Origin: a virus
Lineage: Duplodnaviria > Heunggongvirae > Uroviricota > Caudoviricetes
Virus record (IMG/VR): IMGVR_UViG_3300028960_000080
Location: 1-41,900 of that record
Strand: one strand, 5' to 3'
DNA length: 41,900 nt
The notes under the pieces were generated by a model. It saw only the letters and a program-made list of their open reading frames with translations, was not told where the DNA came from and searched no databases. A program made the position numbers and the translations under genes. Shown here in pieces: positions 1,331-41,900 of this stretch (positions are counted from its first letter, which is position 1; each line of letters starts with the position of its first letter).

Positions 1331-1345
1331 GCTTTTTTATACTAA
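1331..1345. other. attL: attL core (GCTTTTTTATACTAA), followed by lambda-like P' arm up to int
   Basis: Exact match to the lambda att core; identical copy at 41319..41333; downstream sequence (TCAGTCAAAATAAAATCATTATTTG...) matches what I recall of the lambda attP arm. Confidence 0.9.
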
Positions 1346-4121: not shown

Positions 4122-4946
4122 TCAGGCGGTGAAAGTACCAATAAAGGTTTCTACTTTGCTGTCCTTGAATTTCTCAACAAGCAGATCACGAAATTCGTTA
4201 GCCATTTCTTCCTGCACTGCTTCCAGCTGAATAATGCGCAGAACCAGTACAGGACGATCGCCAGTGATAATGCTGAGGCGTAATTTAAACGGACGTTCTT
4301 TCAGGCCTTCAAACGGAACGCATTTAAATTCAAATGCCACAGGCATAATATCTTTGGTCTTCGCTTCGACAGACTCCATCAGGGAGCGTTTGCCGCTGAA
4401 GTCATTGTCTTCAAAATCAGCGGTCTGGTTTGCTTCAATCGTGATTTTACGGACTGCCGCAGCCGCTTTTGTTGCCTGAATAGCATCACCATTAGCATCA
4501 AAGCCCACAAGGTAGTCGGCCCAGTCTTCGAGCCATTCTGCCAGTGACTTCTGGTAGTTACGCTCACCGTTAACAGACAACAGGGCAGAGAACGGTGCTG
4601 TCTTTTTCAGTTTGAGAGTGGCGGTGTTATCTGCGTGACCTGGTTCATCAATAGTACCCAGGTTAAGTACACTGACGGCACGCATATTATCAGCATCGAT
4701 AAAGCAGCGGGTGCCTTCATCTGCAAGATCTTTAGAATAACGGGTAAAGTCATCGATGCTGGCAGTGGAAAGCGCACCACGGAAACGGAAGCGATTTAAA
4801 TTAAATTTTTCCAGATCATGAATGCGGAAATTCTCAGGCAATGCCACAGCATCGGCACCAATCTTACTGATAATTTCATTAACACCCTGAGCAGAAATAA
4901 GGGCATGGATTTGATTAATTGCGGTTGCGTCTAAGTTCTGAGACAT
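4122..4946 (-). CDS. YfdQ-like (DUF2303-family) phage protein, 274 aa
   Basis: ORF with GAGGA Shine-Dalgarno; resembles the YfdQ family of SfV/CPS-53-like prophages (family assignment from memory). Confidence 0.65.
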
Positions 4947-7370: not shown

Positions 7371-7571
7371 ATGACAACTGACGATATCGAAAGCTACTTC
7401 GGCAGTATTGAGAAAGTTGCTGCTTTTTTCGGCATAACAACTGAAGCCGTTTATCAGTGGCGAAACCGTCCGGGCCAGTTAATTCCAAAAGGACGTGCAG
7501 CAGAAGCTGCATATAGAACTTGCGGACGGTTGCCATTTAAACCTGAGCTTTATGAAAAATCTAATGGATAA
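7371..7571 (+). CDS. cro: Cro-like HTH regulator (YdaS-like), 66 aa
   Basis: Small HTH protein (AAFFGITTEAVYQWRNR) divergently transcribed from cI. Confidence 0.75.
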   Translation: MTTDDIESYFGSIEKVAAFFGITTEAVYQWRNRPGQLIPKGRAAEAAYRTCGRLPFKPELYEKSNG

Positions 7572-8166: not shown

Positions 8167-8501
8167 ACAGTTTAACAACACACTACCGTCGCTCGCAACT
8201 GATTGCGCTTCCTGTACCGGGTGGAAAAGCGAAGGTGGAGTATTGCTATGCAGTAAATGTACCAGGTGACAGGGAAATTGTAACCCACAGCTTTGCAGAG
8301 TGGGCTGTGGGTGATTTCAACCGGCAGAAGGAGACAGTCCTTTGCGACAAGTTAACCGCTGGTTCAAAGATCACTACGGAGTGCCCGTCAGAGTCATTCG
8401 TTGGGAGCCGGAAACACAACGGGTTATCTACCTCCGCGAAGGCTATGAGCATGAGTGCTTCAGTCCGCTCGAACAGTTTCGTCGTAAATTCAGGGAAATA
8501 G
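8163..8501 (+). CDS. Hypothetical protein (112 aa), possibly frameshifted or partly spurious
   Basis: ATGA overlap with the upstream gene suggests coupling, but the C-terminal third is Ser-rich low complexity while an alternative frame encodes a protein-like sequence. Confidence 0.35.
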
Positions 8502-8521
8502 AGGTCGGTCATGAGCACTAA
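8342..8521 (+). CDS. Alternative-frame small ORF (59 aa, TTG start) not in the ORF track
   Basis: GAAGGAGA Shine-Dalgarno at 8327..8334, 7-nt spacer, TTG start; translation ...[42 protein letters not shown]; stop overlaps the start of the O-like gene. Confidence 0.35.
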
Positions 8522-9452
8522 ATTAACCGGCTATGTATGGGATGGTTGCGCAGCGTCAGGCATGAAATTATCCAGCGTGGCAATTATGGCCCGCCTGGCT
8601 GATTTCAGTAATGACGAAGGTGTGTGCTGGCCATCAATTGAAACCATTGCCCGCCAGATTGGCGCGGGGATGAGTACCGTCAGAACGGCTATCGCACGGC
8701 TGGAAGCAGAAGGCTGGTTAACGCGTAAGGCGCGTCGCCAGGGTAACCGCAATGCATCGAATGTTTATCAGCTTAACGTTGCGAAGCTTCAGGCAGCGGC
8801 ATTTTCTCAACTGTCAGATTCTGACACGTCAAAATCTGACGCATCAAAATCTGACCCGTCAAAATTTGATGCGTCGAAATCTGGCAAAAAAGCGGGTTTT
8901 CACCCGTCAGAATCTGGCGGGGATCCGTCAGTAAAATCAAAACATGATCCGTCAGATAAAAAAACTTCTCGTCCGGACGCTTCGCAACCGGACACGCAGA
9001 CGGATGAACAGGATTTTTTAACTCGCCATCCTGATGCGGTTGTATTCAGCCCTAAAAAGCGCCAGTGGGGGACGCAGGATGATTTGACCTGCGCACAGTG
9101 GCTCTGGAAAAAAATCATCGCCCTGTACGAGCAGGCCGCCGAATGTGACGGCGAGGTGGTTCGTCCTAAAGAACCGAACTGGACAGCCTGGGCAAACGAA
9201 ATTCGCCTGATGTGTGTGCAGGATGGTCGTACTCACAAACAAATCTGCGAGATGTACAGCCGCGTCAGCCGCGATCCGTTCTGGTGCCGTAACGTGCTCA
9301 GCCCGTCGAAGCTGCGGGAAAAATGGGATGAGCTTTCCCTGCGCTTATCGCCGTCCGTCAGCACGTACACCGAAAAACGCGAAGACCCGTACTTCAAAGC
9401 CAGTTACGACAACGTGGACTACAGCCAAATCCCGGCAGGATTCAGGGGGTGA
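8511..9452 (+). CDS. Replication initiator (lambda O-like: N-terminal winged-helix iteron binder, internal iteron-encoded linker)
   Basis: N-terminal HTH resembling phage replisome organisers; gene contains the iteron array as lambda O contains ori; sits at the O position after cro/cII-like genes. Confidence 0.75.
   Translation: MSTKLTGYVWDGCAASGMKLSSVAIMARLADFSNDEGVCWPSIETIARQIGAGMSTVRTAIARLEAEGWLTRKARRQGNRNASNVYQLNVAKLQAAAFSQLSDSDTSKSDASKSDPSKFDASKSGKKAGFHPSESGGDPSVKSKHDPSDKKTSRPDASQPDTQTDEQDFLTRHPDAVVFSPKKRQWGTQDDLTCAQWLWKKIIALYEQAAECDGEVVRPKEPNWTAWANEIRLMCVQDGRTHKQICEMYSRVSRDPFWCRNVLSPSKLREKWDELSLRLSPSVSTYTEKREDPYFKASYDNVDYSQIPAGFRG
8811..8918 (+). repeat. Origin iterons (about six ~15-bp repeats of consensus cGTCAAAATCTGAC) followed by an A-rich tract
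   Basis: Direct repeats read in sequence: CTGTCAGATTCTGAC, ACGTCAAAATCTGAC, GCATCAAAATCTGAC, CCGTCAAAATTTGAT, GCGTCGAAATCTGGC, CCGTCAGAATCTGGC. Confidence 0.7.
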
Positions 9453-13545: not shown

Positions 13546-14586
13546 TTAAAGTGATGCGATGATAGCCCTTCCAAGAGCTTCAGCCATCTTGGGAGGGACT
13601 GCATTCCCTATCTGTTTGGCTTTCGAGACTAAAGAGCCTGTGAAGGAATAGTCTAATGGGAAAGTCTGTAATAACGCAGCCTCTCTAACAGAAATAGCCC
13701 TATCTTGCTCTGGATGTCCGAAACGTCCATTCGAATAGCTTATACATCTAGTTGTTAATCCACTTGCTGGTTTGTCCCAAGAAAGCCGTCCATAAACATC
13801 AGTATGCCCTTTATATTTTTTATGGCATTTTAGTATAAGTTCTTCAGGCCAAGATTCTCTACCTTTTCCCTCAGGAGTCGCTTTAATACGTTTAATATTT
13901 AGATCAGATAGTTTGGCTGCTGTATGATCCATAACATCTTTATGAGTTTCACCGGCAGCAATAGGAGGTAATCCGCCGATCCAGTCTCTGACAGTTGCAT
14001 ACGGAGTTTTTAACCCATCATGAGTTTGTGATGGAAGCTTAATATTCGTGTGTTTTGACGCCAGTAAAACAAAACGTTCACGTGTTTGAGGAACCCCGAA
14101 CCACAACGCAGGAATCACACCAAAATCAACGTTGTAGTGATGATGTGCTAAAACCTCAAGAAATTTCTGGAAATTTCCATTGTTAATATCGACATTTTGG
14201 ATTCCTGGTACATTCTCTACCAGTACAAAGTCTGGCGTATAATAAGAGACAAACCGTGCAAACTCAGTAAGCAGATCTTTTCTCGGATCATCCTCGTTCC
14301 GTATTTTATTTTGTTTCGAGAATGGTTGACATGGAGCACAACCACAAAATAGGGTTAGAGCTTTGCTTTGTGTTGACGCACAAACCAGATGCTTAATTTC
14401 CTCAACGTGTGTATCTTTGATATCACCATTGATAAAATGTGCAAATGGATTATTCATTTTAAAGGTGTTAGCGGAATCTAGATCAATATCTAAACCGAAA
14501 ATAATTTCCATTCCCACCGCTTTTAGGCCTACACTGGTTCCGCCGCAGCCGGAAAAGAAATCGTAAACGTGTATCTTTTTAGCCAT
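13546..14586 (-). CDS. DNA cytosine-C5 methyltransferase (Dcm-like)
   Basis: Canonical C5-MTase motifs in order: I (DFFSGCGG), IV (GCAPCQPFS, catalytic Cys), VI (LVENV), VIII (QTRERFVLL); AT-rich by eye. Confidence 0.92.
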   Translation of the reverse strand: MAKKIHVYDFFSGCGGTSVGLKAVGMEIIFGLDIDLDSANTFKMNNPFAHFINGDIKDTHVEEIKHLVCASTQSKALTLFCGCAPCQPFSKQNKIRNEDDPRKDLLTEFARFVSYYTPDFVLVENVPGIQNVDINNGNFQKFLEVLAHHHYNVDFGVIPALWFGVPQTRERFVLLASKHTNIKLPSQTHDGLKTPYATVRDWIGGLPPIAAGETHKDVMDHTAAKLSDLNIKRIKATPEGKGRESWPEELILKCHKKYKGHTDVYGRLSWDKPASGLTTRCISYSNGRFGHPEQDRAISVREAALLQTFPLDYSFTGSLVSKAKQIGNAVPPKMAEALGRAIIASL

Positions 14587-14589
14587 TAT

Positions 14590-16380
14590 CTACCTCACTC
14601 TTGGTCTGATAGTATCATTATCTAAAAAGATTTGCAGCAACTCTCGAGTTTTTGTTAACACTTCATGATTATTTGGTATTTTATTAAGAATTCTGATTTG
14701 TGTTTCAAAGATATCGTCACTGGTAACGTTCTCCAACCCTGTGTCTAACTTACAAAGTTCTTTGGTGATTTCTTTAGCATCTTGAATGTTTTTGGGGATT
14801 TGATCTTTATATTCTTTATAATCACCATGAACATTCTCAATAAGAAATGCTTCAGGAGTATAAACAGGAAGAAAAGCAATTTTATCGTGGATGAAATCGA
14901 TAAAATTTCTTTGCATTGTGTATTTTTGATTGTTATTTGATGAGCCATTAGAACCATCACAACTAAATTTTATATCCTGATTGGTTATTTCTTTTATGAT
15001 GTTTTGAAGGTTTGTGTTTTGATTTTCTGGTATGGAATCAGAAGTTGGATAATCATCAGTTCTCGATTGGTCACCATCTAATAAGAAAATAACGTTTTTA
15101 ACATTGGCAACACATAAAGGCACAGCCAAAGTTTGAAGAATACTTCCCGCTCCTCCAGGAACATGTTTTACTTCGAAGGAGTTTAATAATGCTTCACCAC
15201 CCGCTTTAAGCGCCTTTTCTACAAACCTCTTCGCTAACCGATCTTCTACAATAACGGTTCTTTTATCAATGCGTTCACCAAGAATAAAGAAAGATTCTTC
15301 TGGACTGACATTTTGAAGAACATCAACCTTTCCTATTTTATCATTCAGACAGAATAATTTTATGGCATTTTTAGGCAAGTCTTTTACTATTGTTGATGAA
15401 TGTGTGGATATGACAATTTGATGTTTCTTTTTAAGTGCTTGTTCTGATAAAAATTCCATCAATTGACATTGAGCAGAAGGGTGAAGTGATACTTCAGGTT
15501 CATCTAGCAGAATTAAAGATGCATCAGGGCTATCCATTAGTTTATGCACTAATATAGATACAGCAAATTCCCCACTGCCTGCGAAAGCTTCAGAATATTT
15601 TAAGTTTTCTGATTGAAGAATAATTGTGGGAGCTTTGTCATTAGTGAATAAGCTATGTTCAATAAGGCGGATGCTTGTGTATTTGCGACCTAAAATCTTG
15701 CTGATTGCCTCTACCTTACTTTTTTCTAATAAAGTGTTAACAAATAGCTTGTCTTTTTTTCCTTTATGAGGTTGATATTTTTTAAGATCGTTATCTATAA
15801 TGTCTTTTAGCATCTGACTGCGTTTTCTAAGATAATCTTTCTTAGGGTATGTATGAAAATCAGAGTGATAAAAGAACTTATCAAATGCACTGATAGTTGC
15901 TCTGAAATCTAAATATATTACATTTTTGTCAATAGCTTTCCACCTGGTCCTTAGTTGATTGGTTGAGATTTTTGTACTAGGCATTGGAGCCATGTTGTCG
16001 GATTTTAATGGTCTGGATGGTTCCCAGTAATCAGGATCATTTTCTTTAGAGATTCGAGTTTTAATTACTTCAACAATTGAATCAGTAGCTTTGTCATAAT
16101 ATCCATAAATAAATCTAGAACGACCACCATCTTTAATCTCATCTACATCTGTAGAAAACCATAAGCTACCCAGAGAATAGTTGTTTGGAGAACCGAATAG
16201 GGCTCTTAAAACAGAACTTTTATTGGTTCCGTTTTGACCAACTAATGCTGTAATTGGATACTCAAAATCAATCTTGCTACCCTCTGCAAGGTTTTTAAAA
16301 AAAGGAAAACGAATATGTCTAATAAATGGCTCAATTTTAGACGATGCCATAATTTTCTTTAGTTTTAATTCTGTGCTCAT
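14590..16380 (-). CDS. ABC-type ATPase fused to a TOPRIM-like nuclease domain (OLD-family-like / fused PARIS-like), 596 aa
   Basis: Walker A (GQNGTNKSS), Walker B (LILLDEPEVSLHP), H-loop (ISTHS) in the N-terminal half; C-terminal TVIVED and FLLDGDQ fit the TOPRIM Glu and DxD motifs; 3-nt gap to the methyltransferase gene; start could instead be the ATG at 16350. Confidence 0.8.
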   Translation of the reverse strand: MSTELKLKKIMASSKIEPFIRHIRFPFFKNLAEGSKIDFEYPITALVGQNGTNKSSVLRALFGSPNNYSLGSLWFSTDVDEIKDGGRSRFIYGYYDKATDSIVEVIKTRISKENDPDYWEPSRPLKSDNMAPMPSTKISTNQLRTRWKAIDKNVIYLDFRATISAFDKFFYHSDFHTYPKKDYLRKRSQMLKDIIDNDLKKYQPHKGKKDKLFVNTLLEKSKVEAISKILGRKYTSIRLIEHSLFTNDKAPTIILQSENLKYSEAFAGSGEFAVSILVHKLMDSPDASLILLDEPEVSLHPSAQCQLMEFLSEQALKKKHQIVISTHSSTIVKDLPKNAIKLFCLNDKIGKVDVLQNVSPEESFFILGERIDKRTVIVEDRLAKRFVEKALKAGGEALLNSFEVKHVPGGAGSILQTLAVPLCVANVKNVIFLLDGDQSRTDDYPTSDSIPENQNTNLQNIIKEITNQDIKFSCDGSNGSSNNNQKYTMQRNFIDFIHDKIAFLPVYTPEAFLIENVHGDYKEYKDQIPKNIQDAKEITKELCKLDTGLENVTSDDIFETQIRILNKIPNNHEVLTKTRELLQIFLDNDTIRPRVR

Positions 16381-25472: not shown

Positions 25473-25953
25473 TTTTCAGCAGCCCGCGGAGATGCGCTTT
25501 AACCGCGCCCGTGTCAGGCGGGCGTTTGTCACGATTGGTCAGCGTCATATGCGTGATGCCCGTCGGCTGGTGATGCGCCGTGCACGGTCGGCACCGGGTG
25601 AAAACCCCGGTTATCAGACCGGACGCCTGGCTCGTTCGATTGGTTACATGGTACCCAGAGCCAGTAAACATCGCCCTGGTTTTATGGCACGTATAGCCCC
25701 TAACCAGCGTAATGGAGAGGGAAACCGCCGTATCAACGGTGATTTTTATCCGGCTTTTTTGTTCTATGGCGTGAGGCGAGGGGCAAAGCGTCGTCGCAGC
25801 CATCATCGTGGTGCATCCGGTGGCAGCGGCTGGCGACTGGCTCCACGTAATAACTTTATGGTGGAAACGCTTGAAAAGAACCGCAGCTGGACACGCTATT
25901 TTCTGGCGCGGGAATTGCGTAAATCACTGAAGCCGGAGCGACGACACAGATGA
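25447..25953 (+). CDS. HK97 gp10-family neck protein
   Basis: Arg-rich protein with a GENPGYQTGRLARSI-type motif typical of the HK97 gp10 family (from memory). Confidence 0.6.
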   Translation: MTTSFLHVDFQQPAEMRFNRARVRRAFVTIGQRHMRDARRLVMRRARSAPGENPGYQTGRLARSIGYMVPRASKHRPGFMARIAPNQRNGEGNRRINGDFYPAFLFYGVRRGAKRRRSHHRGASGGSGWRLAPRNNFMVETLEKNRSWTRYFLARELRKSLKPERRHR

Positions 25954-34967: not shown

Positions 34968-36012
34968 ATTTCAGCGCCCGACGCTGGCAGAAAATATCAG
35001 TATGCTCCGTAACGATTTATTCGCCAGGCTGGACGTCAGCGACACGCTCCGGCGCATGGATGAAGACGTGCGGGCAAAGGTGTATGCGGCGGCGCTGCAT
35101 ACGGTTTACGGGTACATCGATTATCTGGCAATGAACATGCTGCCTGACCTGTGCGATGAGTCCTGGCTGGCGCAACATGCTGCGATGAAACGGTGTCCGC
35201 GCAAGGGGGCCACGGCTGCCAGCGGGTATATGCGCTGGGAAGGTGTCAGCGATGGCCTGAAGGTGACCGCCGGAAGTGTTATTCAGCGCGATGACCTGGT
35301 TCAGTACACGGCAACTGCCGATGCAACCAGCACCGGTGGTGTCCTGCGCGTGCCGATCGCCTGCTCAAGTGCAGGCGCGGTCGGTAACGCTGACGACGGT
35401 ACGTCATTAATCCTGGTCACGCCGGTTAATGGTCTGCCGTCTTCCGGCGAGGCAGATACCCTGACAGGTGGATTTGATACTGAAGAGCTGGAAACGTGGC
35501 GCGCCCGCGTCATTGAGCGGTATTACTGGACGCCTCAGGGCGGGGCTGACGGGGACTATGTCGTCTGGGCTAAAGAAGTGCCCGGCATTACCCGCGCATG
35601 GACATACCGACACTGGATGGGAACGGGGACTGTCGGTGTGATGATTGCCAGCAGTGACCTGATTAACCCCATTCCGGAAGAATCAACGGAAACGGCGGCA
35701 AGACAACATATCGAGCCACTGGCCCCGGTGGCAGGCTCTGATTTGTATGTATTCAGGCCGGTGGCGCACAAAGTGGATTTTCATATCCGCGTGACGCCGG
35801 ACACACCGGAAATACGGGCTGCCATCACCGCGGAGTTGCGTTCATTCCTGCTGCGTGATGGTTATCCGCAGGGAGAGCTTAAGGTATCGCGTATCAGTGA
35901 AGCGATTTCCGGTGCGAACGGGGAATACAGCCATCAGTTGCTTGCTCCGGCGGACAATATCTCCATTGCAAAAAATGAACTGGCGGTTCTGGGGACGATT
36001 TCATGGACGTGA
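34954..36012 (+). CDS. Baseplate J-like protein
   Basis: 352-aa ORF in the conserved baseplate position. Confidence 0.8.
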
Positions 36013-36587
36013 CAAACGATGATTACATCCGTCTGTTGTCGGCACTGTTGCCCCCTGGTCCGGCGTGGTCAGCCAGCGATCCGGCGATTGCCGGTGCGGC
36101 ACAGTCATTAACCCGTGCTCATCAGCGTGCGGATGCCCTGATGCGGGAGCTGGATCCGCGCACCACCACCGAACTGATAAACCGCTGGGAGCGTCTGTGC
36201 GGCCTGCCGGATGAATGTATTCCGGCAGGGACGCAGACCCTTCGCCAGCGTCAGCAACGGCTGGATGCGAAGGTTAACCTGGCGGGTGGCATCAATGAGG
36301 ATTTTTACCTTGCGCAGCTTGCTGCCCTGGGCAGACCAGATGCCACCATCACGCGATACGACAAAAGCACGTTCACCTGCTCATCGGCCTGTACTGACGC
36401 GGTGAATGCGCCGGAATGGCGGTATTACTGGCAGGTCAATATGCCAGCTGCCACCAACACCACCTGGATGACATGTGGCGATCCCTGTGATTCCGCACTG
36501 CGTATCTGGGGGGACACCGTTGTCGAGTGCGTGCTTAACAAACTCTGCCCGTCGCATACCTACGTAATTTTTAAATATCCGGAGTAA
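36003..36587 (+). CDS. Tail protein, YmfQ / Mu gp48-like (DUF2313-like)
   Basis: 194 aa; directly precedes the tail fibre gene as in e14/Mu-like modules. Confidence 0.7.
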
Positions 36588-36590
36588 TTC

Positions 36591-37523
36591 ATGCATCGTA
36601 TAGACACGAAAACCGCGCAGAAGGATAAGTTCGGCGCGGGTAAGAACGGTTTTACCCGTGGTAACCCCCAGACCGGCACGCCTGCCACCGATCTGGATGA
36701 TGACTACTTTGACATGTTGCAGGAGGAGCTTTGCAGCGTGGTGGAGGCATCCGGTGCCAGCCTGGAGAAGGGGCGGCATGACCAGTTGCTTACAGCGCTT
36801 CGTGAGCTGCTGTTAAGCCGCAAGAATCCGTTTGGCGATATCAAATCGGATGGCACGGTGAAAACGGCTCTCGAAAACCTTGGTTTGGGAGATGGCTCGG
36901 GGCGTTACAGCAAAACTGTCGTTTTTTCATCGTCGGGTTCATATACGTGGCCAGCTGACGTAAAACGAATTGACGTTATTCTGACTGCGGCGGGCGGCGG
37001 TGGCGGTGGATGTAACGCGGAGAACGCAAATCAGACATTTTCAGGGGCTGGCGGAGGAGCCGGAGGTACTGTTTTTGCCACTATTTATGCGACAGACAAC
37101 GATGCCGGGCCAGGGACCTATACAGTGACAATTGGTAGCGGTGGTAGTGGTGCCAATGGGCCAGGGTCTGGAAATAATGGCGGTCATAGTTCGTTCATGA
37201 CATTAACTGCGCTCGGCGGCCAGGGTGGGCAATGGGGCGGCGCTACAAATACCGCTGGCGGGCTCGGTGGTTCAGGCTCTGGCGGTTATAAAACTGAACA
37301 AGGCGGAGACGGTTCAGACGGACAGGCGGGCCAGGCGCTATTAGTAGGCAATGGGGCATCGAGCTATTGGGGTGGCGGCGGCCGCGCTGGGCAACTGAGC
37401 GGTAATTCTGGAGTTTGCTCTGGCTCCGGCGGCGGGGGTGCATACGATAATAGCTATTCACACACGTCAGGACGTGGCGGGCACGGAGCTAATGGCGTGC
37501 TGGTAATTCGGGAGTACATGTAA
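36591..37523 (+). CDS. Tail fibre protein with Gly-rich C-terminal region
   Basis: N-terminus [22 protein letters not shown] typical of side tail fibre N-termini; long Gly-rich repeats ([23 protein letters not shown]). Confidence 0.7.
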
Positions 37524-37928
37524 ATGAATGATGTTTATGCAGTTGTTGATAATAACGTTGTTATTAATGTCATTATCTGGGACGGAATTTCTGAATGGAA
37601 ACCAGAGGCTGGTAATTTAGTTCCGTTAAACGGCGATGCTGGCATCGGTTGGTCATATTCAGACGGAGTATTTACCGCGCCACCTCCCCCAGAACGCTCT
37701 CACAACGCGTTAGTTGCGGAGGCTGAGCTGCAGAAATCAGCACTACTGACCGTAGCAAATAACGCAATAGCACCGCTGCAGGATGCCGTTGATTTGGAAA
37801 TGGCGACAGACGATGAACAGACGTTACTGCTGGCGTGGAAAAAATACAGGGTACTGCTGAACCGTGTTGATACCTCAGCGGCACCCGAAATAGAGTGGCC
37901 TACGCAACCGGGGGAGCGGGCCAGTTGA
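37524..37928 (+). CDS. Tail fibre assembly protein (Tfa)
   Basis: N-terminus MNDVYA... and C-terminus ...[22 protein letters not shown] characteristic of Tfa chaperones. Confidence 0.8.
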
Positions 37929-38035
37929 TATCAGGCGCAGGGGCAGCATCAACTGCTGTCACTGCGTCGATGTAGTCGAGTACCGCATTCATCCGCCTTT
38001 TTTCATCATCAGTCAGTTTGCGTCCTACACCTCTC
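37898..38035 (-). pseudogene. Inverted remnant of an alternative tail-fibre-assembly gene C-terminus (relic of an invertible host-range segment)
   Basis: Minus-strand reading gives ...[32 protein letters not shown], paralleling the Tfa C-terminal motif (V.D..AP.I.WP..P); only about 45 codons and no invertase gene. Confidence 0.35.
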
Positions 38036-38226
38036 CGTTAACATCTTTGTTATATGGTACAACTGCGCAGAGGCCTGTCTCTCCAATTGTGCCAGTTGAA
38101 TACTACGATACAACGCTAGGTCTTCCTATTTGGTGGAACATAACCACATCCACATGGAAAAGAGCTGATGGTGCAGATGTATAATTCTGGTGCCGCGCAT
38201 GCGGCACCAATAAAAAACATATTAAA

Positions 38227-39702
38227 CTAAAGTGAATCTATTCCATTTTTCCAAATAAGAACTTTTTTGTCTTGTATTTTATGAGTGCTATCAGGCTGCC
38301 CAAACTGTTTTATGGCCTTTTCCTCTTGCTCTACATCATCAGCAATTAAAAAATTAGCTCCTTTTTGGTACCATTCTTTTTTTGATAACCAATTATATGG
38401 TGTGAATCTATCACCATACGACTCAAATGGAGCTACGTTGATATCACTAAATCCAGCAACAGATGATGCAAACCAAAATGATGCATAACCTCTTTGTAGT
38501 TTATTTTTTATTAAGAAATCTCTTAATTCTATTGTAATATCATTTTTATTAACAATGTTTTTTGTTGTTGCCATCGTTGGCAACGATAACGCAATAACGA
38601 TTAATGATATTAGTAAATTTGTCTTCACTGGTAAGGAGAAAGAATTTCTAGCAATCACAATTGACATGAAAATAAACGTTGGGACTATGTATCTAATTGA
38701 GAAAAGATTTGTTGGCCTGTCACTTGAAATATAGGCAATCAACATGACTAATGATGATACAATAAGAACCTGGTCAATAAAATCAATTTCTTTAAATTTA
38801 AGAATATTTTTATAAGATAAAAATAAGAATACGAAAATGAAAAACACCTTTATCATGGTGAATAATGAGTTAAAGCTACCTATCTCCATTCCAAACGCGT
38901 ACCCACCAAAAAATTTGAATACGCCCATGATAACAAGAGATATGTTGCTTGTTATTTGTTGAAACTCTACTATGTGAGGTTTGGTTATGCCTGGCAGGTT
39001 AAATCCACCAAGCTTAATGAATATAAATGATATGAGCTCAGCAATAAATATAGATGATATAGTGAAAACCAACAATAACAAATCATTAGTATTCAACGAA
39101 TCTCTTTTCATTAGAGAAGCATACATTCTATATATGCAAACAAAAACTATAGGTATTATAAAGGCATATTTAGATATATCATCACTAAAAACAAGCAACG
39201 ATAACATAAATACATATGGAAAAAGTAATTTTAAATCATTTTTCTTTCTGTATCTATCTATTATTAGTATGATCGCCAGCATGTAAATGTACGCACCAAT
39301 ATGTATACATGCTATAAGCATTATACTTGATGAGAAAACCGTTGGAATTCCAAATACAGAAAGAACAGGCCATAACGATGCCCTACTTTTAGTATGAGAG
39401 ATATATAGCGATAGTGTTACTAATATAGACATGAAAACTCCAGGCACAATATAGTACAGATTTTCATTAAATCCTATTATTTTTATCGCTATAGCATATG
39501 GTATTATTTCTGTGAAATAGAATGATACAGTTGATAAATCCCACCCACTGAGAAAAATATTTCCTTCAGTAATATCCCTTGCCTCTCTGAATGAAGACAT
39601 GACATCTGAGTTTGGAATTATGTTTTTAGCAATCATTGAGTAAATTATTGATAATACAATAAATGTTGCCAGCCAATATAAAAGCTCAAGCTTCTTGCTC
39701 AT
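38227..39702 (-). CDS. Serotype-specific O-antigen glucosyltransferase (GtrC-type polytopic membrane protein)
   Basis: 491-aa multi-pass membrane protein immediately downstream of gtrB; very AT-rich. Confidence 0.8.
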
Positions 39703-40616
39703 TTTTTACCCTTAAGTACATACTTTGGACGCTGCTTAACTTCAATGTAAATTCTACCAATATACTCACCGAGCACTCCAATCCCAATTAACTGGATGCC
39801 GCCAAGAAATAATATTGATACAAGAATTGAAGGGTATCCAGGTACATTATTACCAAAAATTAATTTATCAATTATCATCCATGAACCGTATGTAAATGAT
39901 ATACATGCAATAAATAACCCAATATAGGTCCACATGCGAAGCGGGAATGTTGAGAAGCTAGTGATCCCTTCCAGCGCCAAGTTCCATAGCTTCCATCCAT
40001 TGAACTTTGTGCTTCCTGCAACGCGTTCTGCTCGCGCATATTCTACGACATCGGTTCGACCACCAACCCAGCTCAGCACACCCTTCATAAACAGGTTTCG
40101 TTCTGGCATGAGCTTAATGTTTTCTACTACTTCGCGAGACATGAGCCGGAAGTCGCCAACATTCTCTTCTATCTGAGGGTTGCTGATTTTGTTATGAAGT
40201 TTATAGAACCACTCAGCAGATTTACGCTTCAGCCTGCTGTCAGTGGAGCGGTCAGAGCGTTTAGCCAGAACCATATCTGCACCGGCCTGCCATTTCTCTA
40301 TCAAGTGAGGAATAACTTCGATAGGGTCTTGCAGATCAACGTCAATCGGGATAATTGCCTCCCCGGTAGCATGGTCCAGACCTGCGAACAGGGCGGGTTC
40401 TTTGCCGAAGTTACGTGTGAACGACAGCGAAACCACAAGCGGGTCGGCAACAGCAAGCTCGTTGATAATTGATTCTGTAGCGTCTTTGCTGCCATCGTTT
40501 ATGAAGACTATCTCGACTTCATGCTGCTGAAGCCCTTCAAATTCGCGCACGGTTTTATAAAAAATAGGTATCGTGGCCTCTTCGTTAAAGACCGGAACGA
40601 CTAAAGAAATTTTCAT
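39699..40616 (-). CDS. gtrB: Bactoprenol glucosyltransferase GtrB
   Basis: GT2-family glycosyltransferase signatures ([22 protein letters not shown]) and two C-terminal transmembrane helices. Confidence 0.92.
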
Positions 40617-40975
40617 TTCGCATCCCTAAAGACAATGTATTTTGAATAAATGAACCCGCATATCAGGCTGATGGCGGAGAAGGTGACAAGAGTTATCATC
40701 GGGGGAAGTGCGCATCTATCAGCAGCCCATCCAACAGTAGCACTGAGTGTTCCCATGAACCCGACATATAACATGTAGCGCATCGTTGTAGTTGATGATT
40801 TGAATGTGAATTTTGCATTCGCGAAGAAGCTAAAACTCACAGCCACAACGAAACCTGCGAAGTTTGCCAGAGCCTGATTGGTATGCGCGGCATAGATACA
40901 TACACTAAAAACCACCCAGTGTATAAGTGTGTTCAGCACACCAATCGAGGTGTACCTTGCAAATATATTTAACAT
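40613..40975 (-). CDS. gtrA: GtrA flippase-like small membrane protein
   Basis: 120-aa four-helix membrane protein upstream of gtrB; the three genes overlap by 4 nt each. Confidence 0.85.
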
Positions 40976-41318
40976 TTATTTAATCAATGAGTTCTGAAAG
41001 GTATGAAGTCTATCATCCAAGTCTCAATCGATCGATACTTGCGGTAGTTGATGAGGAAAACTCTGGTACACAAAGCTTTGCACTGGACTGCAAGGTGTTG
41101 TGCTTCTCTGGAGTGCGATATGTTTGATGACAAAAAATTAGCGCAAGAGGACAAAAAATCACCTTGCGCTAATGCTCTGTTACAGGTCACTAATACTATC
41201 TAAGTAGTTGATTCATAGTGACTGGATATGTTGTGTTTTGCAGTATTATACAGTCTATTTTTTAAGCCAAATGTATTGTAATGGATTGATATTAATGATT
41301 TTTGCTGTTTCTGGTTCA

Positions 41319-41333
41319 GCTTTTTTATACTAA
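41319..41333. other. attR: attR core (GCTTTTTTATACTAA) preceded by a diverged lambda-like P arm
   Basis: Exact direct repeat of the attL core; followed by CTTGAGCGAAACGGGAAGG, which matches what I recall of the bio-side attB flank. Confidence 0.9.
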
Positions 41334-41423
41334 CTTGAGCGAAACGGGAAGGTAAAAAGACAAAAAGTTGTTTTTAATACCTTTAAGTGATACCAGATGG
41401 CATAGCGCCATCTGGCAGAGTGA

Positions 41424-41900
41424 TTAACTAAACATCGCAGTAATCGAGGCGCTTGCCAGAGAATGGAAATGGACGTTAAACCCGACCATCGCGCCGCTGG
41501 CACCTTCATCGACATCAATACGTTCTACATCCAGCGCGTGAACGGTAAAAATGTAGCGATGGGTTTCGCCTTTCGGCGGCGCTGCACCATCGTACCCGGT
41601 TTTACCAAAGTCGGTACGCGTCTGCAAAACGCCGTCTGGCATTGCTACCAGACCAGAGCCAAACCCTTGCGGTAATACGCGGGTATCAGCGGGTAAATTA
41701 ACAACTACCCAGTGCCACCAGCCGGAGCCGGTTGGCGCATCCGGGTCGTAGCAGGTGACAACAAAACTTTTCGTTCCCGCAGGAACATCATCCCACGCCA
41801 GATGCGGTGAAACATTATCGCCATCGTAACCCATGCCGTTAAAGACATGACGATGTGGCAACTTATCGCCATCGCGCAGATCATTACTGATGAGTTTCAT
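41424..41900 (-). CDS. ybhB: Host PEBP-family protein YbhB (complete, 158 aa)
   Basis: Full ORF; recognised as the gene flanking attB-lambda on the bio side; start codon at the window edge. Confidence 0.85.
   Translation of the reverse strand: MKLISNDLRDGDKLPHRHVFNGMGYDGDNVSPHLAWDDVPAGTKSFVVTCYDPDAPTGSGWWHWVVVNLPADTRVLPQGFGSGLVAMPDGVLQTRTDFGKTGYDGAAPPKGETHRYIFTVHALDVERIDVDEGASGAMVGFNVHFHSLASASITAMFS

What the first reader, a model, noticed from the sequence alone, without database searches (positions are those of the whole stretch)
37898..38226. Degenerate invertible host-range segment: inverted Tfa C-terminus remnant, no invertase
Immediately after the tail fibre assembly gene, the opposite strand encodes about 45 codons ending ...[17 protein letters not shown], paralleling the C-terminal motif of the intact Tfa (...[15 protein letters not shown]). 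This is the signature of a Mu G-segment/e14-type invertible tail-fibre cassette, but here the alternative genes are truncated, no invertase gene is present, and the gtr operon follows. It suggests the phage lost host-range switching, possibly when the gtr module was acquired. A GC palindrome (GGTGCCGCGCATGCGGCACC, about 38181..38200) lies at the boundary with the gtr operon.
Basis: partly seen in the sequence, partly recalled or inferred. Interest (0 to 1): 0.45.

Follow-up and report, generated by a model that had tools for sequence, protein, structure and literature searches.

The report
Relic of invertible tail-fibre switch
This stretch is the dead stump of a phage "flip-switch" that once alternated two tail-fibre genes, cut off where it was welded to the end of another phage's tailspike gene and its O-antigen-modifying gtr operon; it is an ordinary, already annotated piece of prophage decay.

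Summary
Window 37900-38037 (minus strand) encodes the last 45 codons of a tail fibre assembly protein (Pfam Caudo_TAP, E 2.9e-9). It overlaps the intact Tfa gene tail-to-tail by 29 nt, exactly as tfaP and tfaE do in the invertible P segment of prophage e14. RefSeq already annotates it as a Tfa pseudogene in E. coli 042.

- The left crossover site survives at 36868-36893 inside the tail fibre gene, matching e14 at 25 of 26 bases. Homology to e14, SfV, SfIV and CPS-53 stops there.
- The window has no second site and no invertase, so the fibre is locked in one orientation.
- The rest of the finding (about 38056-38184, plus strand) is not an alternative fibre gene. It is the last 43 codons of a P22-like tailspike gene.
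- The palindrome is at 38189-38208, not 38181-38200. It is the hairpin that separates tailspike from gtrC in P22-like prophages at the same chromosomal site.

The composite (Tfa 3' end, Tfa' stump, tailspike stump, hairpin, gtrCBA) recurs at about 98% identity in a P2-like and a lambdoid prophage. gtrC types are swapped by recombination inside the tailspike stump. Interest is low to moderate.

The parts
36591..37523 (+). Tail fibre gene (310 aa). The constant N-terminal part is StfP-like and runs to about 36880. The variable C-terminal part is a glycine-rich domain.
   Evidence: A single ORF. Pfam Gly_rich_2 PF21722, E 8.5e-18, on residues 114-307. The N-terminal part is 96% identical in DNA to e14 stfP, SfV orf21, SfIV gp20 and CPS-53 yfdL, and the homology stops at 36892-36898.
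36868..36893 (.). Surviving left crossover site of a Pin/Gin-type invertase (CTCTCGAAAACCTTGGTTTGGGAGAT, central TT at 36880-36881). It is the only copy in the window.
   Evidence: The core AAACCTTGGTTT lies 284 nt into the fibre gene, the same offset as in e14 stfP. It matches the experimentally defined e14 P-segment repeat TTGGTTTGGGAGAAGG at 15 of 16 bases (PMC12529663). No second copy is found with up to 3 mismatches and no flanking inverted repeat is present.
37524..37928 (+). Intact tail fibre assembly gene (Tfa, 134 aa), cognate of the expressed fibre.
   Evidence: Pfam Caudo_TAP, E 1e-32. RefSeq names it 'tail fiber assembly protein'.
37900..38037 (-). Tfa' stump: the last 45 codons plus stop of the alternative, inverted TfaE-type assembly gene. 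It overlaps Tfa tail-to-tail by 29 nt.
   Evidence: RefSeq annotates it as a pseudogene 'missing N-terminus'. The same 29-nt overlap occurs in e14 tfaP/tfaE, SfIV gp21/gp22 and CPS-53 yfdK/tfaS. The ATG at 37992 is unique to the window and 042; the other variants have CTG.
38026..38055 (.). Illegitimate recombination joint between the Tfa' stump and the tailspike stump. The origin of these roughly 30 nt is unresolved.
   Evidence: TfaE homology ends at 38025. Tailspike homology begins at about 38056. The joint is the same in all 9 variants aligned.
38056..38184 (+). 3' stump of a P22-like tailspike gene: the last 43 codons, GTTAQRP..YYDTTLGLPIWWN..WKRADGADV*. It lies within the 45-codon ORF 38047-38184.
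   Evidence: tblastn gives CBA120 orf212 tailspike at 62% identity, E 2e-11, plus other tailspikes. The stump aligns to the extreme C-terminus of intact tailspikes of prophages ST3 and MB53 and of phage Henuyfy11N. It carries a 4-nt frameshifting deletion in strain EcPF15.
38189..38208 (.). GC-rich hairpin between the convergent tailspike stump and gtrC. It is presumably a transcription terminator or RNA 3'-end hairpin imported with the gtr module.
   Evidence: Exact position. The 9-10 bp stem gives a fold of -21 kcal/mol, z about -3 on both strands. There is no T-run on either strand and the scanner does not call it a terminator. Every module variant and every intact tailspike has its own different hairpin at the same place.
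38227..40975 (-). gtrC (38227-39702), gtrB (39699-40616) and gtrA (40613-40975): the O-antigen glucosylation operon.
   Evidence: ORFs. GT2 PF00535 and GtrA PF04138 hits. RefSeq annotation. gtrC has no Pfam hit.
37767..41381 (.). Portable cassette shared with other phage types. It comprises the Tfa 3' end, Tfa' stump, tailspike stump, hairpin, gtrCBA, the att core and a short flank.
   Evidence: 97.6% identity to the P2-like prophage of strain ET650 (between tfa and sheath), over 37767-41381. 97.9% identity to the lambdoid prophage of strain 300081, over 37788-41095.
41319..41333 (.). attR core (GCTTTTTTATACTAA, the lambda att core). The matching attL core is at 1331-1345.
   Evidence: ybhC is at 1-1284 and ybhB at 41424-41900. 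The integrase at 1419-2489 is lambda-type.

Best explanation
The finding is a fossil recombination joint with no present switching function. An ancestor of this SfV/e14-like prophage carried a Pin-type invertible tail-fibre segment laid out as: constant fibre 5' part, crossover site, variable part, Tfa, then inverted Tfa', inverted variable part', second crossover site and invertase. An illegitimate recombination inside the inverted Tfa' gene joined it to the last 43 codons of a P22-like tailspike gene. That tailspike came with its terminator hairpin and the convergent gtrCBA operon, as seen in P22-like prophages sitting at the same att-lambda site. Everything distal was removed: the N-terminal two thirds of Tfa', the alternative fibre end, the right crossover site and the invertase with its enhancer. 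With a single site and no invertase the fibre gene is locked in the glycine-rich orientation. The two stumps now act only as patches of homology. Recombination in the conserved tailspike stump exchanges gtrC or oac modules with P22-like prophages. Recombination in or near the Tfa 3' end has carried the whole cassette into P2-like and lambdoid prophages. Shown here: the identity of each piece, the single site, the absence of an invertase, the intact relatives, the cassette sharing and the block-wise mosaic. Inferred: the order of events and that one event did both the deletion and the gtr acquisition.
For: - The Tfa' stump is real and TfaE-type.
- The 26-bp crossover site sits at the constant/variable joint of the fibre gene and matches e14 pixL at 25 of 26 bases. 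Homology to five relatives stops exactly there. The e14 repeats are experimentally defined (PMC12529663).
- There is only one site and no Pin homologue in 41.9 kb.
- e14 has the complete layout with the same 29-nt Tfa/Tfa' overlap.
- Among 19 loci sharing the constant fibre end there is a graded series. e14, L033 and L023 are intact. SfIV keeps a full Tfa' but nothing else. CPS-53 keeps a 101-codon tfaS. L026 keeps only a Pin fragment. SfV keeps nothing.
- The closest full-length relatives of the stump lie in intact invertible segments of P1-like and P2-like phages.
- The tailspike stump aligns to the C-terminus of intact tailspikes. The ST3 prophage shows tailspike, hairpin, then gtrCBA, attR and ybhB at the same locus.
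- The 9-variant alignment shows a conserved joint with block-wise divergence starting inside the tailspike stump and co-varying with the gtrC or oac type. EcPF15's right block matches ST3's intact tailspike end apart from one mismatch and a 4-nt deletion.
- All 67 E. coli genomes that hold at least 80% of the variable stretch 36900-38040 cover it through the truncated Tfa' in a single collinear match.
Against: - The order of events is not observable. The cassette boundaries inside tfa in P2-like and lambdoid prophages show the stump can be imported ready-made, so this particular prophage may never have had a working switch.
- No relative was found with this same glycine-rich variable part inside an intact two-site segment.
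- The hairpin lacks a U-tract, so its terminator role is an inference.
- Inversion was not tested experimentally, and a trans-acting invertase elsewhere in the genome could not be examined.
Confidence: 0.82

Rival explanations
1. The stump is imported baggage and not evidence of local loss. The gtr cassette, with the Tfa 3' end and Tfa' stump already attached, entered this prophage by recombination within tfa. On this view the host-range switch was lost in some other phage, and this lineage's fibre was already fixed.
For: The same 3.3-3.6 kb cassette starts inside tfa (window 37767 or 37788) in a P2-like and a lambdoid prophage at about 98% identity. In the lambdoid prophage the forward Tfa is itself only a 30-codon remnant.
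Against: The fibre gene of this prophage carries its own Pin-type crossover site at the constant/variable joint. Its fibre module therefore did descend from an invertible segment. The variable part, Tfa and stump are contiguous and co-inherited in all 67 genomes. The P2-like copy carries the att-lambda core and a chromosomal-flank-like sequence, which points to a prophage at att-lambda, like this one, as the donor.
Confidence: 0.12
2. The region is functional as it stands. It would encode a small protein (the 45-codon plus-strand ORF 38047-38184 or the 30-codon minus-strand ORF 37900-37992), for example a toxic or exclusion peptide analogous to K-12 YodE, or a regulatory antisense RNA for gtrC or tfa.
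For: In K-12 CPS-53 the annotated toxic small protein YodE lies inside the equivalent podophage-fibre 3' remnant between tfaS and yfdI. The plus-strand ORF is open in 8 of 9 variants.
Against: The 45-aa ORF is not homologous to YodE. It is frameshifted by a 4-nt deletion in EcPF15, and its 3' third is replaced block-wise together with the downstream module. The ATG of the 30-codon ORF is unique to the window and 042, while the others have CTG like TfaE. No convincing promoter was found.
Confidence: 0.04
3. The minus-strand similarity arose by chance or by a local palindromic duplication of the Tfa 3' end and has nothing to do with invertible segments.
For: Tfa C-termini share a short proline-rich motif that could recur by chance.
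Against: The Pfam hit is E 2.9e-9. The stump is only 40% identical to the neighbouring Tfa but 66% identical to e14 TfaE, 71% to a P2-like Tfa' and 76% to a P1-like Tfa'. The 29-nt overlap geometry is identical to that of intact segments.
Confidence: 0.02

Closest known systems
Invertible P segment of E. coli K-12 cryptic prophage e14 (stfP-tfaP / tfaE-stfE', pinE)
   Same: The baseplate and ymfQ module and the constant fibre 5' part are the same at 96% DNA identity. The crossover site has the same sequence (25 of 26 bases) and the same offset of 284 nt into the gene. The 29-nt tail-to-tail Tfa/Tfa' overlap is the same. The stump is TfaE-type at 66% identity.
   Different: Here the variable fibre part is a different glycine-rich domain. 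Tfa' is cut to 45 codons. There is no stfE', no right site (AAACCAACGTTT in e14), no pinE and no mcrA. A tailspike stump and gtrCBA take their place.
tfaS pseudogene of K-12 prophage CPS-53/KplE1 (yfdL-yfdK / tfaS, yodE, yfdI-yfdH-yfdG)
   Same: The degenerate layout is the same: a fibre gene with one crossover site, Tfa, an inverted TfaE-type stump overlapping by 29 nt, a podophage fibre or tailspike 3' remnant, a hairpin and a convergent gtrC.
   Different: The truncation point differs (101 codons against 45). The tailspike-like remnant is unrelated and contains yodE. The integration site differs (argW). It therefore appears to be an independent event or a later deletion.
Shigella serotype-converting phages SfIV, SfV, SfII and SfI
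   Same: The Mu-like tail module, the constant fibre part and the single crossover-site sequence are shared, and gtr lies directly downstream of the fibre and tfa genes.
   Different: SfIV keeps a full-length inverted Tfa' (gp22, 174 aa), followed by an IS and gtrIV. The SfIV paper read gp22 as an extra assembly protein (PMC3851460). In SfV no inverted Tfa is annotated after tfa and TfaE-type Tfa' queries were not run against it, so absence of a stump was not tested. These phages integrate at tRNA sites with their own integrases.
Mu G segment/Gin, P1 C segment/Cin and EC958 prophage tail-fibre switches (Din-family invertases)
   Same: The design is the same: a 26-bp crossover site inside the fibre gene, with mirror-image sets of variable fibre end plus assembly gene. 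The site fits the published consensus core (PMC4134206). A P1-like phage holds the closest full-length Tfa' next to its invertase.
   Different: Those systems are complete and active. This one has one site, one and a third gene sets and no invertase.
P22-like prophage layout: tailspike, hairpin, convergent gtrC-gtrB-gtrA, att
   Same: The 43-codon stump aligns to the tailspike C-terminus. A hairpin follows, then a convergent gtrC. The ybhB-side attachment site is the same in strain ST3, and gtrB, gtrA and the flank are 95.7% identical.
   Different: Only the last 43 codons of the tailspike remain here, and the virion module upstream is a contractile-tail (Mu-like) one.

Membership tests
Din-family (Pin/Gin/Cin/Hin) invertible tail-fibre segment | Serine DNA invertase gene adjacent to the segment | tested here: not met
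   tblastn of e14 PinE against the whole window finds no hit at E <= 0.01. gtrC follows directly.
Din-family (Pin/Gin/Cin/Hin) invertible tail-fibre segment | Two 26-bp crossover sites in inverted orientation flanking the segment | tested here: not met
   There is one site at 36868-36893. No second copy is found with up to 3 mismatches for the 22-mer or the 16-mer. The core pattern with one mismatch hits only unrelated places at 25602 and 30788. No flanking inverted repeat is present.
Din-family (Pin/Gin/Cin/Hin) invertible tail-fibre segment | Crossover site inside the fibre gene at the joint between the constant 5' part and the variable 3' part | tested here: met
   The site lies 284 nt into the gene, as in e14. 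The 96% homology to e14, SfV, SfIV, CPS-53 and vB_EcoM-689R6 ends at 36892-36898.
Din-family (Pin/Gin/Cin/Hin) invertible tail-fibre segment | Two mirror-image sets of variable fibre end plus assembly gene, arranged tail-to-tail | tested here: not met
   There is one complete set plus only the last 45 codons of the second Tfa, and no alternative fibre end. The 29-nt overlap geometry is retained.
Din-family (Pin/Gin/Cin/Hin) invertible tail-fibre segment | Segment found in both orientations in populations or genomes | tested here: not met
   All 67 E. coli genomes that hold at least 80% of the variable stretch cover it end to end in one collinear match, so no inverted isoform was seen. No sequencing reads were available to test within-culture heterogeneity.
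Din-family (Pin/Gin/Cin/Hin) invertible tail-fibre segment | Fis-dependent recombinational enhancer in cis, normally in the invertase gene 5' end | not testable with these tools
   There is no invertase gene and hence no expected location. No enhancer model was available.
Caudovirales tail fibre assembly protein (Pfam PF02413, Caudo_TAP) | Significant match to the family profile | tested here: met
   E 2.9e-9 and 37.6 bits against a cut-off of 22.1, but only profile positions 95-130 of 131 are matched. It is a C-terminal fragment and not a complete member.
P22-like tailspike protein | Head-binding N-terminus, beta-helix and C-terminal domain | tested here: not met
   Only the terminal 43 residues align. 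The upstream reading frame has no tailspike similarity.
Rho-independent terminator | GC-rich hairpin followed by a U-tract | tested here: inconclusive
   The hairpin is strong (fold of -21 kcal/mol, z about -3). There is no T-run on either strand and the scanner does not call it. The position is conserved while the sequence differs across module variants.
gtrABC O-antigen glucosylation operon | GtrA flippase-like protein, GtrB GT2 bactoprenol glucosyltransferase and a serotype-specific polytopic GtrC | tested here: met
   PF04138 and PF00535 hits. gtrC is a 491-aa ORF with no Pfam hit, as is usual for serotype-specific GtrC. The RefSeq names agree.

The most novel reading that the evidence does not exclude
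The two gene stumps are more than debris. They would act as portable 'homology adaptors' that let an O-antigen-modifying gtr moron dock behind the receptor-binding genes of any tail type. The Tfa 3' end and Tfa' stump would serve myo- and siphophages that use Tfa chaperones. The tailspike 3' stump would serve podophages. On this reading, invertible-segment decay repeatedly creates the landing pad through which receptor-modifying genes become linked to receptor-binding genes. A corollary is that the orphan crossover site in the fibre gene could still pair with sites in other prophages when a Pin invertase is supplied in trans.
Probability: 0.3. Interest if true: 0.4.

Novelty: new member of a known kind. 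Interest (0 to 1): 0.25.

Why it matters
The finding explains why this prophage family (SfV-like, e14-like and CPS-53-like elements in E. coli and Shigella) carries odd inverted Tfa pseudogenes next to serotype-conversion genes. It corrects readings of such fragments as extra assembly proteins or as hypothetical small ORFs. It also gives a concrete, base-level example of how O-antigen-modifying modules are shuffled between podo-, myo- and siphophage backbones through short conserved gene ends. In practice it flags two annotation artefacts: the fibre gene split at the crossover site, and small ORFs inside tailspike remnants. It predicts that this prophage has a fixed host range. It does not reveal a new mechanism.

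Tried and rejected
- Megablast of 37400-38400 against the phage collection found nothing. Only the distant mode and the E. coli genome collection were informative.
- A tblastn extension of TfaP across 38187-37909 on the minus strand (26% identity, 44 gaps, 3 stops) was rejected as spurious. The plus-strand tailspike match explains that DNA far better.
- I tested whether the 45-codon plus-strand ORF is a YodE homologue. It is not, although YodE lies in the analogous remnant of CPS-53.
- I considered the palindrome as a recombination or att-like site. This was rejected because every module variant has a different hairpin at that position, and the true att cores are at 1331 and 41319.
- I considered it as a canonical intrinsic terminator. 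That is not supported by the scanner, because no T-run is present.
- The genome-contig scan with the fibre protein returned only relatives of the constant N-terminus. No intact invertible segment with the same glycine-rich variable part was found.
- The literature searches found no paper that describes tfaS or this stump as a relic of an invertible segment. The SfV genome paper and Sandmeier's review were not in the searchable library.

Full report
**Context.** The window is a 40-kb prophage at the lambda attachment site.
- The core GCTTTTTTATACTAA occurs at 1331 and 41319.
- ybhC lies at 1-1284 and ybhB at 41424-41900. A lambda-type integrase lies at 1419-2489.
- Window 36500-38400 is 99.3% identical to E. 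coli 042 (NC_017626), and window 38026-38230 is 100% identical to strain FDAARGOS_1288.
- The tail module is Mu-like, as in the Shigella phage SfV and the K-12 element e14.
- The order around the finding is: ymfQ/gp48 (36003-36587), tail fibre (36591-37523), Tfa (37524-37928), the finding (37898-38226), then gtrC, gtrB and gtrA on the minus strand (38227-40975).

**Check of the observation.**
- The minus strand of 37900-38037 reads [45 protein letters not shown], which is 45 codons after an in-frame stop.
- It matches Pfam Caudo_TAP at profile positions 95-130 of 131, E 2.9e-9, above the curated cut-off.
- It matches the neighbouring intact Tfa at 40% identity over 35 aa, E 2e-6.
- It matches e14 TfaE residues 160-200 at 66% identity, E 2e-12.
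- RefSeq already lists it in E. coli 042 as a pseudogene: 'tail fiber assembly protein, incomplete, missing N-terminus'.
- PinE has no homologue anywhere in the window.
- The palindrome exists but lies at 38189-38208, 8 nt to the right of the stated position.

**Is it a relic of an invertible segment?** Four lines of evidence say yes.
1. The fibre gene contains CTCTCGAAAACCTTGGTTTGGGAGAT at 36868-36893.
   - Its core AAACCTTGGTTT is unique in the window.
   - It lies 284 nt into the gene, the same offset as the left crossover site in e14 stfP, and differs from that site at one of 26 bases.
   - The e14 P segment has been shown experimentally to invert between TTGGTTTGGGAGAAGG and its complement (PMC12529663). 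The window matches that repeat at 15 of 16 bases.
   - The site fits the general Din-family consensus quoted in PMC4134206.
   - The 96% DNA homology to e14, SfV, SfIV, CPS-53 and phage vB_EcoM-689R6 ends exactly at this site, at 36892-36898. That is what a constant/variable joint should look like.
2. Tfa and the stump overlap tail-to-tail by 29 nt (37900-37928). The same overlap occurs in e14 tfaP/tfaE, SfIV gp21/gp22, CPS-53 yfdK/tfaS and a P2-like phage with an intact mirror arrangement.
3. Relatives that share the constant fibre end form a decay series.
   - e14 and two Shigella flexneri prophages have two sites, two gene sets and Pin.
   - SfIV keeps a full inverted Tfa' but no alternative fibre end and no invertase.
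   - CPS-53 keeps 101 codons (tfaS).
   - A Scandinavium locus keeps only a Pin fragment.
   - In SfV no inverted Tfa is annotated downstream of tfa. TfaE-type Tfa' queries were not run against it, so the absence of a stump there was not tested.
4. The closest full-length relatives of the stump lie inside intact invertible segments. These are a P1-like phage, where it sits next to its invertase (76% over 38 aa), and a P2-like phage (71%).

The switch itself is gone. There is no second site and no invertase. All 67 E. coli genomes that hold at least 80% of the variable stretch 36900-38040 cover it end to end, through the truncated Tfa', in a single collinear match.

**What the rest of the finding is.** The DNA between the stump and gtrC is not part of the old segment.
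- On the plus strand, 38056-38184 encodes GTTAQRPVSPIVPVEYYDTTLGLPIWWNITTSTWKRADGADV*.
- tblastn matches it to tailspike proteins, for example CBA120 orf212 at 62% identity, E 2e-11.
- It aligns to the very C-terminus of intact tailspikes of P22-like prophages and of phage Henuyfy11N.
- In strain ST3 a P22-like prophage at the same chromosomal site shows the full layout: tailspike, hairpin, convergent gtrC-gtrB-gtrA, attR and ybhB. Its gtrB, gtrA and flank are 95.7% identical to the window.
- The region 38056-38226 is therefore the 3' end of a tailspike gene plus its inter-gene hairpin, imported together with the gtr operon.
- The joint with the Tfa' stump lies within 38026-38055.
- The hairpin folds strongly (-21 kcal/mol, z about -3) but has no T-run and is not called a terminator.
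- Every module variant has a different hairpin at the same place. This argues for a structural role at RNA 3' ends rather than a recombination site.

**Mobility.**
- A 3.3-3.6 kb block (window 37767 or 37788 to 41095 or 41381) recurs at about 98% identity in two unrelated prophages. One is P2-like (strain ET650), where the block sits between tfa and the sheath gene. The other is lambdoid (strain 300081), where it sits after Stf and even the forward Tfa is only a 30-codon remnant.
- The P2-like copy includes the att-lambda core and about 48 nt resembling the bacterial B' flank. The cassette was therefore picked up from an integrated prophage.
- In an alignment of nine variants, the Tfa' stump, the joint and the first 85 nt or so of the tailspike stump are nearly invariant. 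Sequence then diverges in blocks that co-vary with the downstream gene: four gtrC types and one acyltransferase.
- The right-hand block of strain EcPF15 matches the intact tailspike end of ST3 apart from one mismatch and a 4-nt deletion.
- This pattern indicates one ancestral illegitimate joint, followed by repeated homologous exchanges within the conserved 'DTTLGLPIW' coding patch.

**Function of the stumps.** Neither small ORF looks conserved.
- The ATG at 37992 is unique to the window and 042; the other variants have CTG, as in TfaE.
- The plus-strand ORF is frameshifted in EcPF15, and its 3' third is replaceable.
- K-12 yodE, annotated as a toxic small protein, lies in the analogous but non-homologous remnant of CPS-53. 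A peptide role therefore cannot be fully excluded, but it is unlikely here.

**Verdict.** Four amendments apply.
- One crossover site survives, about 1 kb upstream of the stated coordinates.
- Half of the stated interval is a tailspike remnant and not an alternative fibre gene.
- The palindrome is a module-borne hairpin, and its coordinates were off by 8 nt.
- The stump is part of a cassette that moves between phage types.

The phenomenon is a decayed Din-type switch, annotated here as a pseudogene and paralleled by K-12 tfaS. It is of a known kind. I found no paper that spells out the relic interpretation or the tailspike remnant, but it is ordinary phage mosaicism.

Noticed in passing
window 36591-37523: RefSeq/PGAP splits this single uninterrupted 310-codon fibre ORF into a 'StfP pseudogene, missing C-terminus' and an overlapping 'glycine-rich domain-containing protein'. 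This looks like an annotation artefact caused by the mosaic joint at the crossover site.
   Followed up: partly
window 1331-1345 and 41319-41333: The lambda att core GCTTTTTTATACTAA occurs at both prophage ends, with a lambda-like P' arm at attL and a lambda-type integrase at 1419-2489. An SfV-like virion module is thus combined with a lambda integration module at att-lambda (ybhC/ybhB).
   Followed up: partly
L009 (E. coli ET650, NZ_CP100936) about 7480-7550: The gtr cassette inside a P2-like prophage carries the att-lambda core plus about 48 nt that resemble, at roughly 85%, the bacterial B' flank next to ybhB. The cassette seems to have been captured from an integrated prophage, possibly in another species.
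   Followed up: partly
L008 (K-12 CPS-53) 4498-4782: The annotated toxic small protein gene yodE lies entirely inside a roughly 94-codon 3' remnant of a podophage tail fibre or tailspike gene (36% identity to the vB_EcoP_P64441 tail fiber, E 9e-12), between tfaS and yfdI.
   Followed up: partly
L004 (phage SfIV) 6812-7483: Between the IS element and gtrIV there is a plus-strand coding-looking stretch that ends in a C/G-rich hairpin just before the gtrIV stop. It may be another fibre or tailspike 3' remnant. It had no hit to the tailspike queries tried.
   Followed up: no
window 13546-16380 (minus strand): A two-gene insert lies in the late regulatory region. One gene is a C-5 cytosine DNA methylase (PF00145, E 3e-59). 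The other is a 596-aa AAA_15/AAA_21 ATPase (AbiEii/OLD-like). It is possibly a defence or anti-restriction moron.
   Followed up: no
L006 (phage vB_EcoM-689R6) 5092-7373: This is an SfV-like phage whose fibre gene, cut at the same crossover site, is followed by mcrA and a DNA invertase in the opposite orientation to e14, at the end of a partial genome record. It may be a rearranged e14-type segment.
   Followed up: no
L026 (Scandinavium hiltneri) 8510-8737; L023 (S. flexneri SFBU0723) 8293-8845: These are further decay states of the same switch. L026 has only the C-terminal 76 residues of a Pin invertase. L023 has two crossover sites, a segment in the flipped orientation and a Pin gene that matches in two overlapping pieces, so it may be disrupted.
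   Followed up: no
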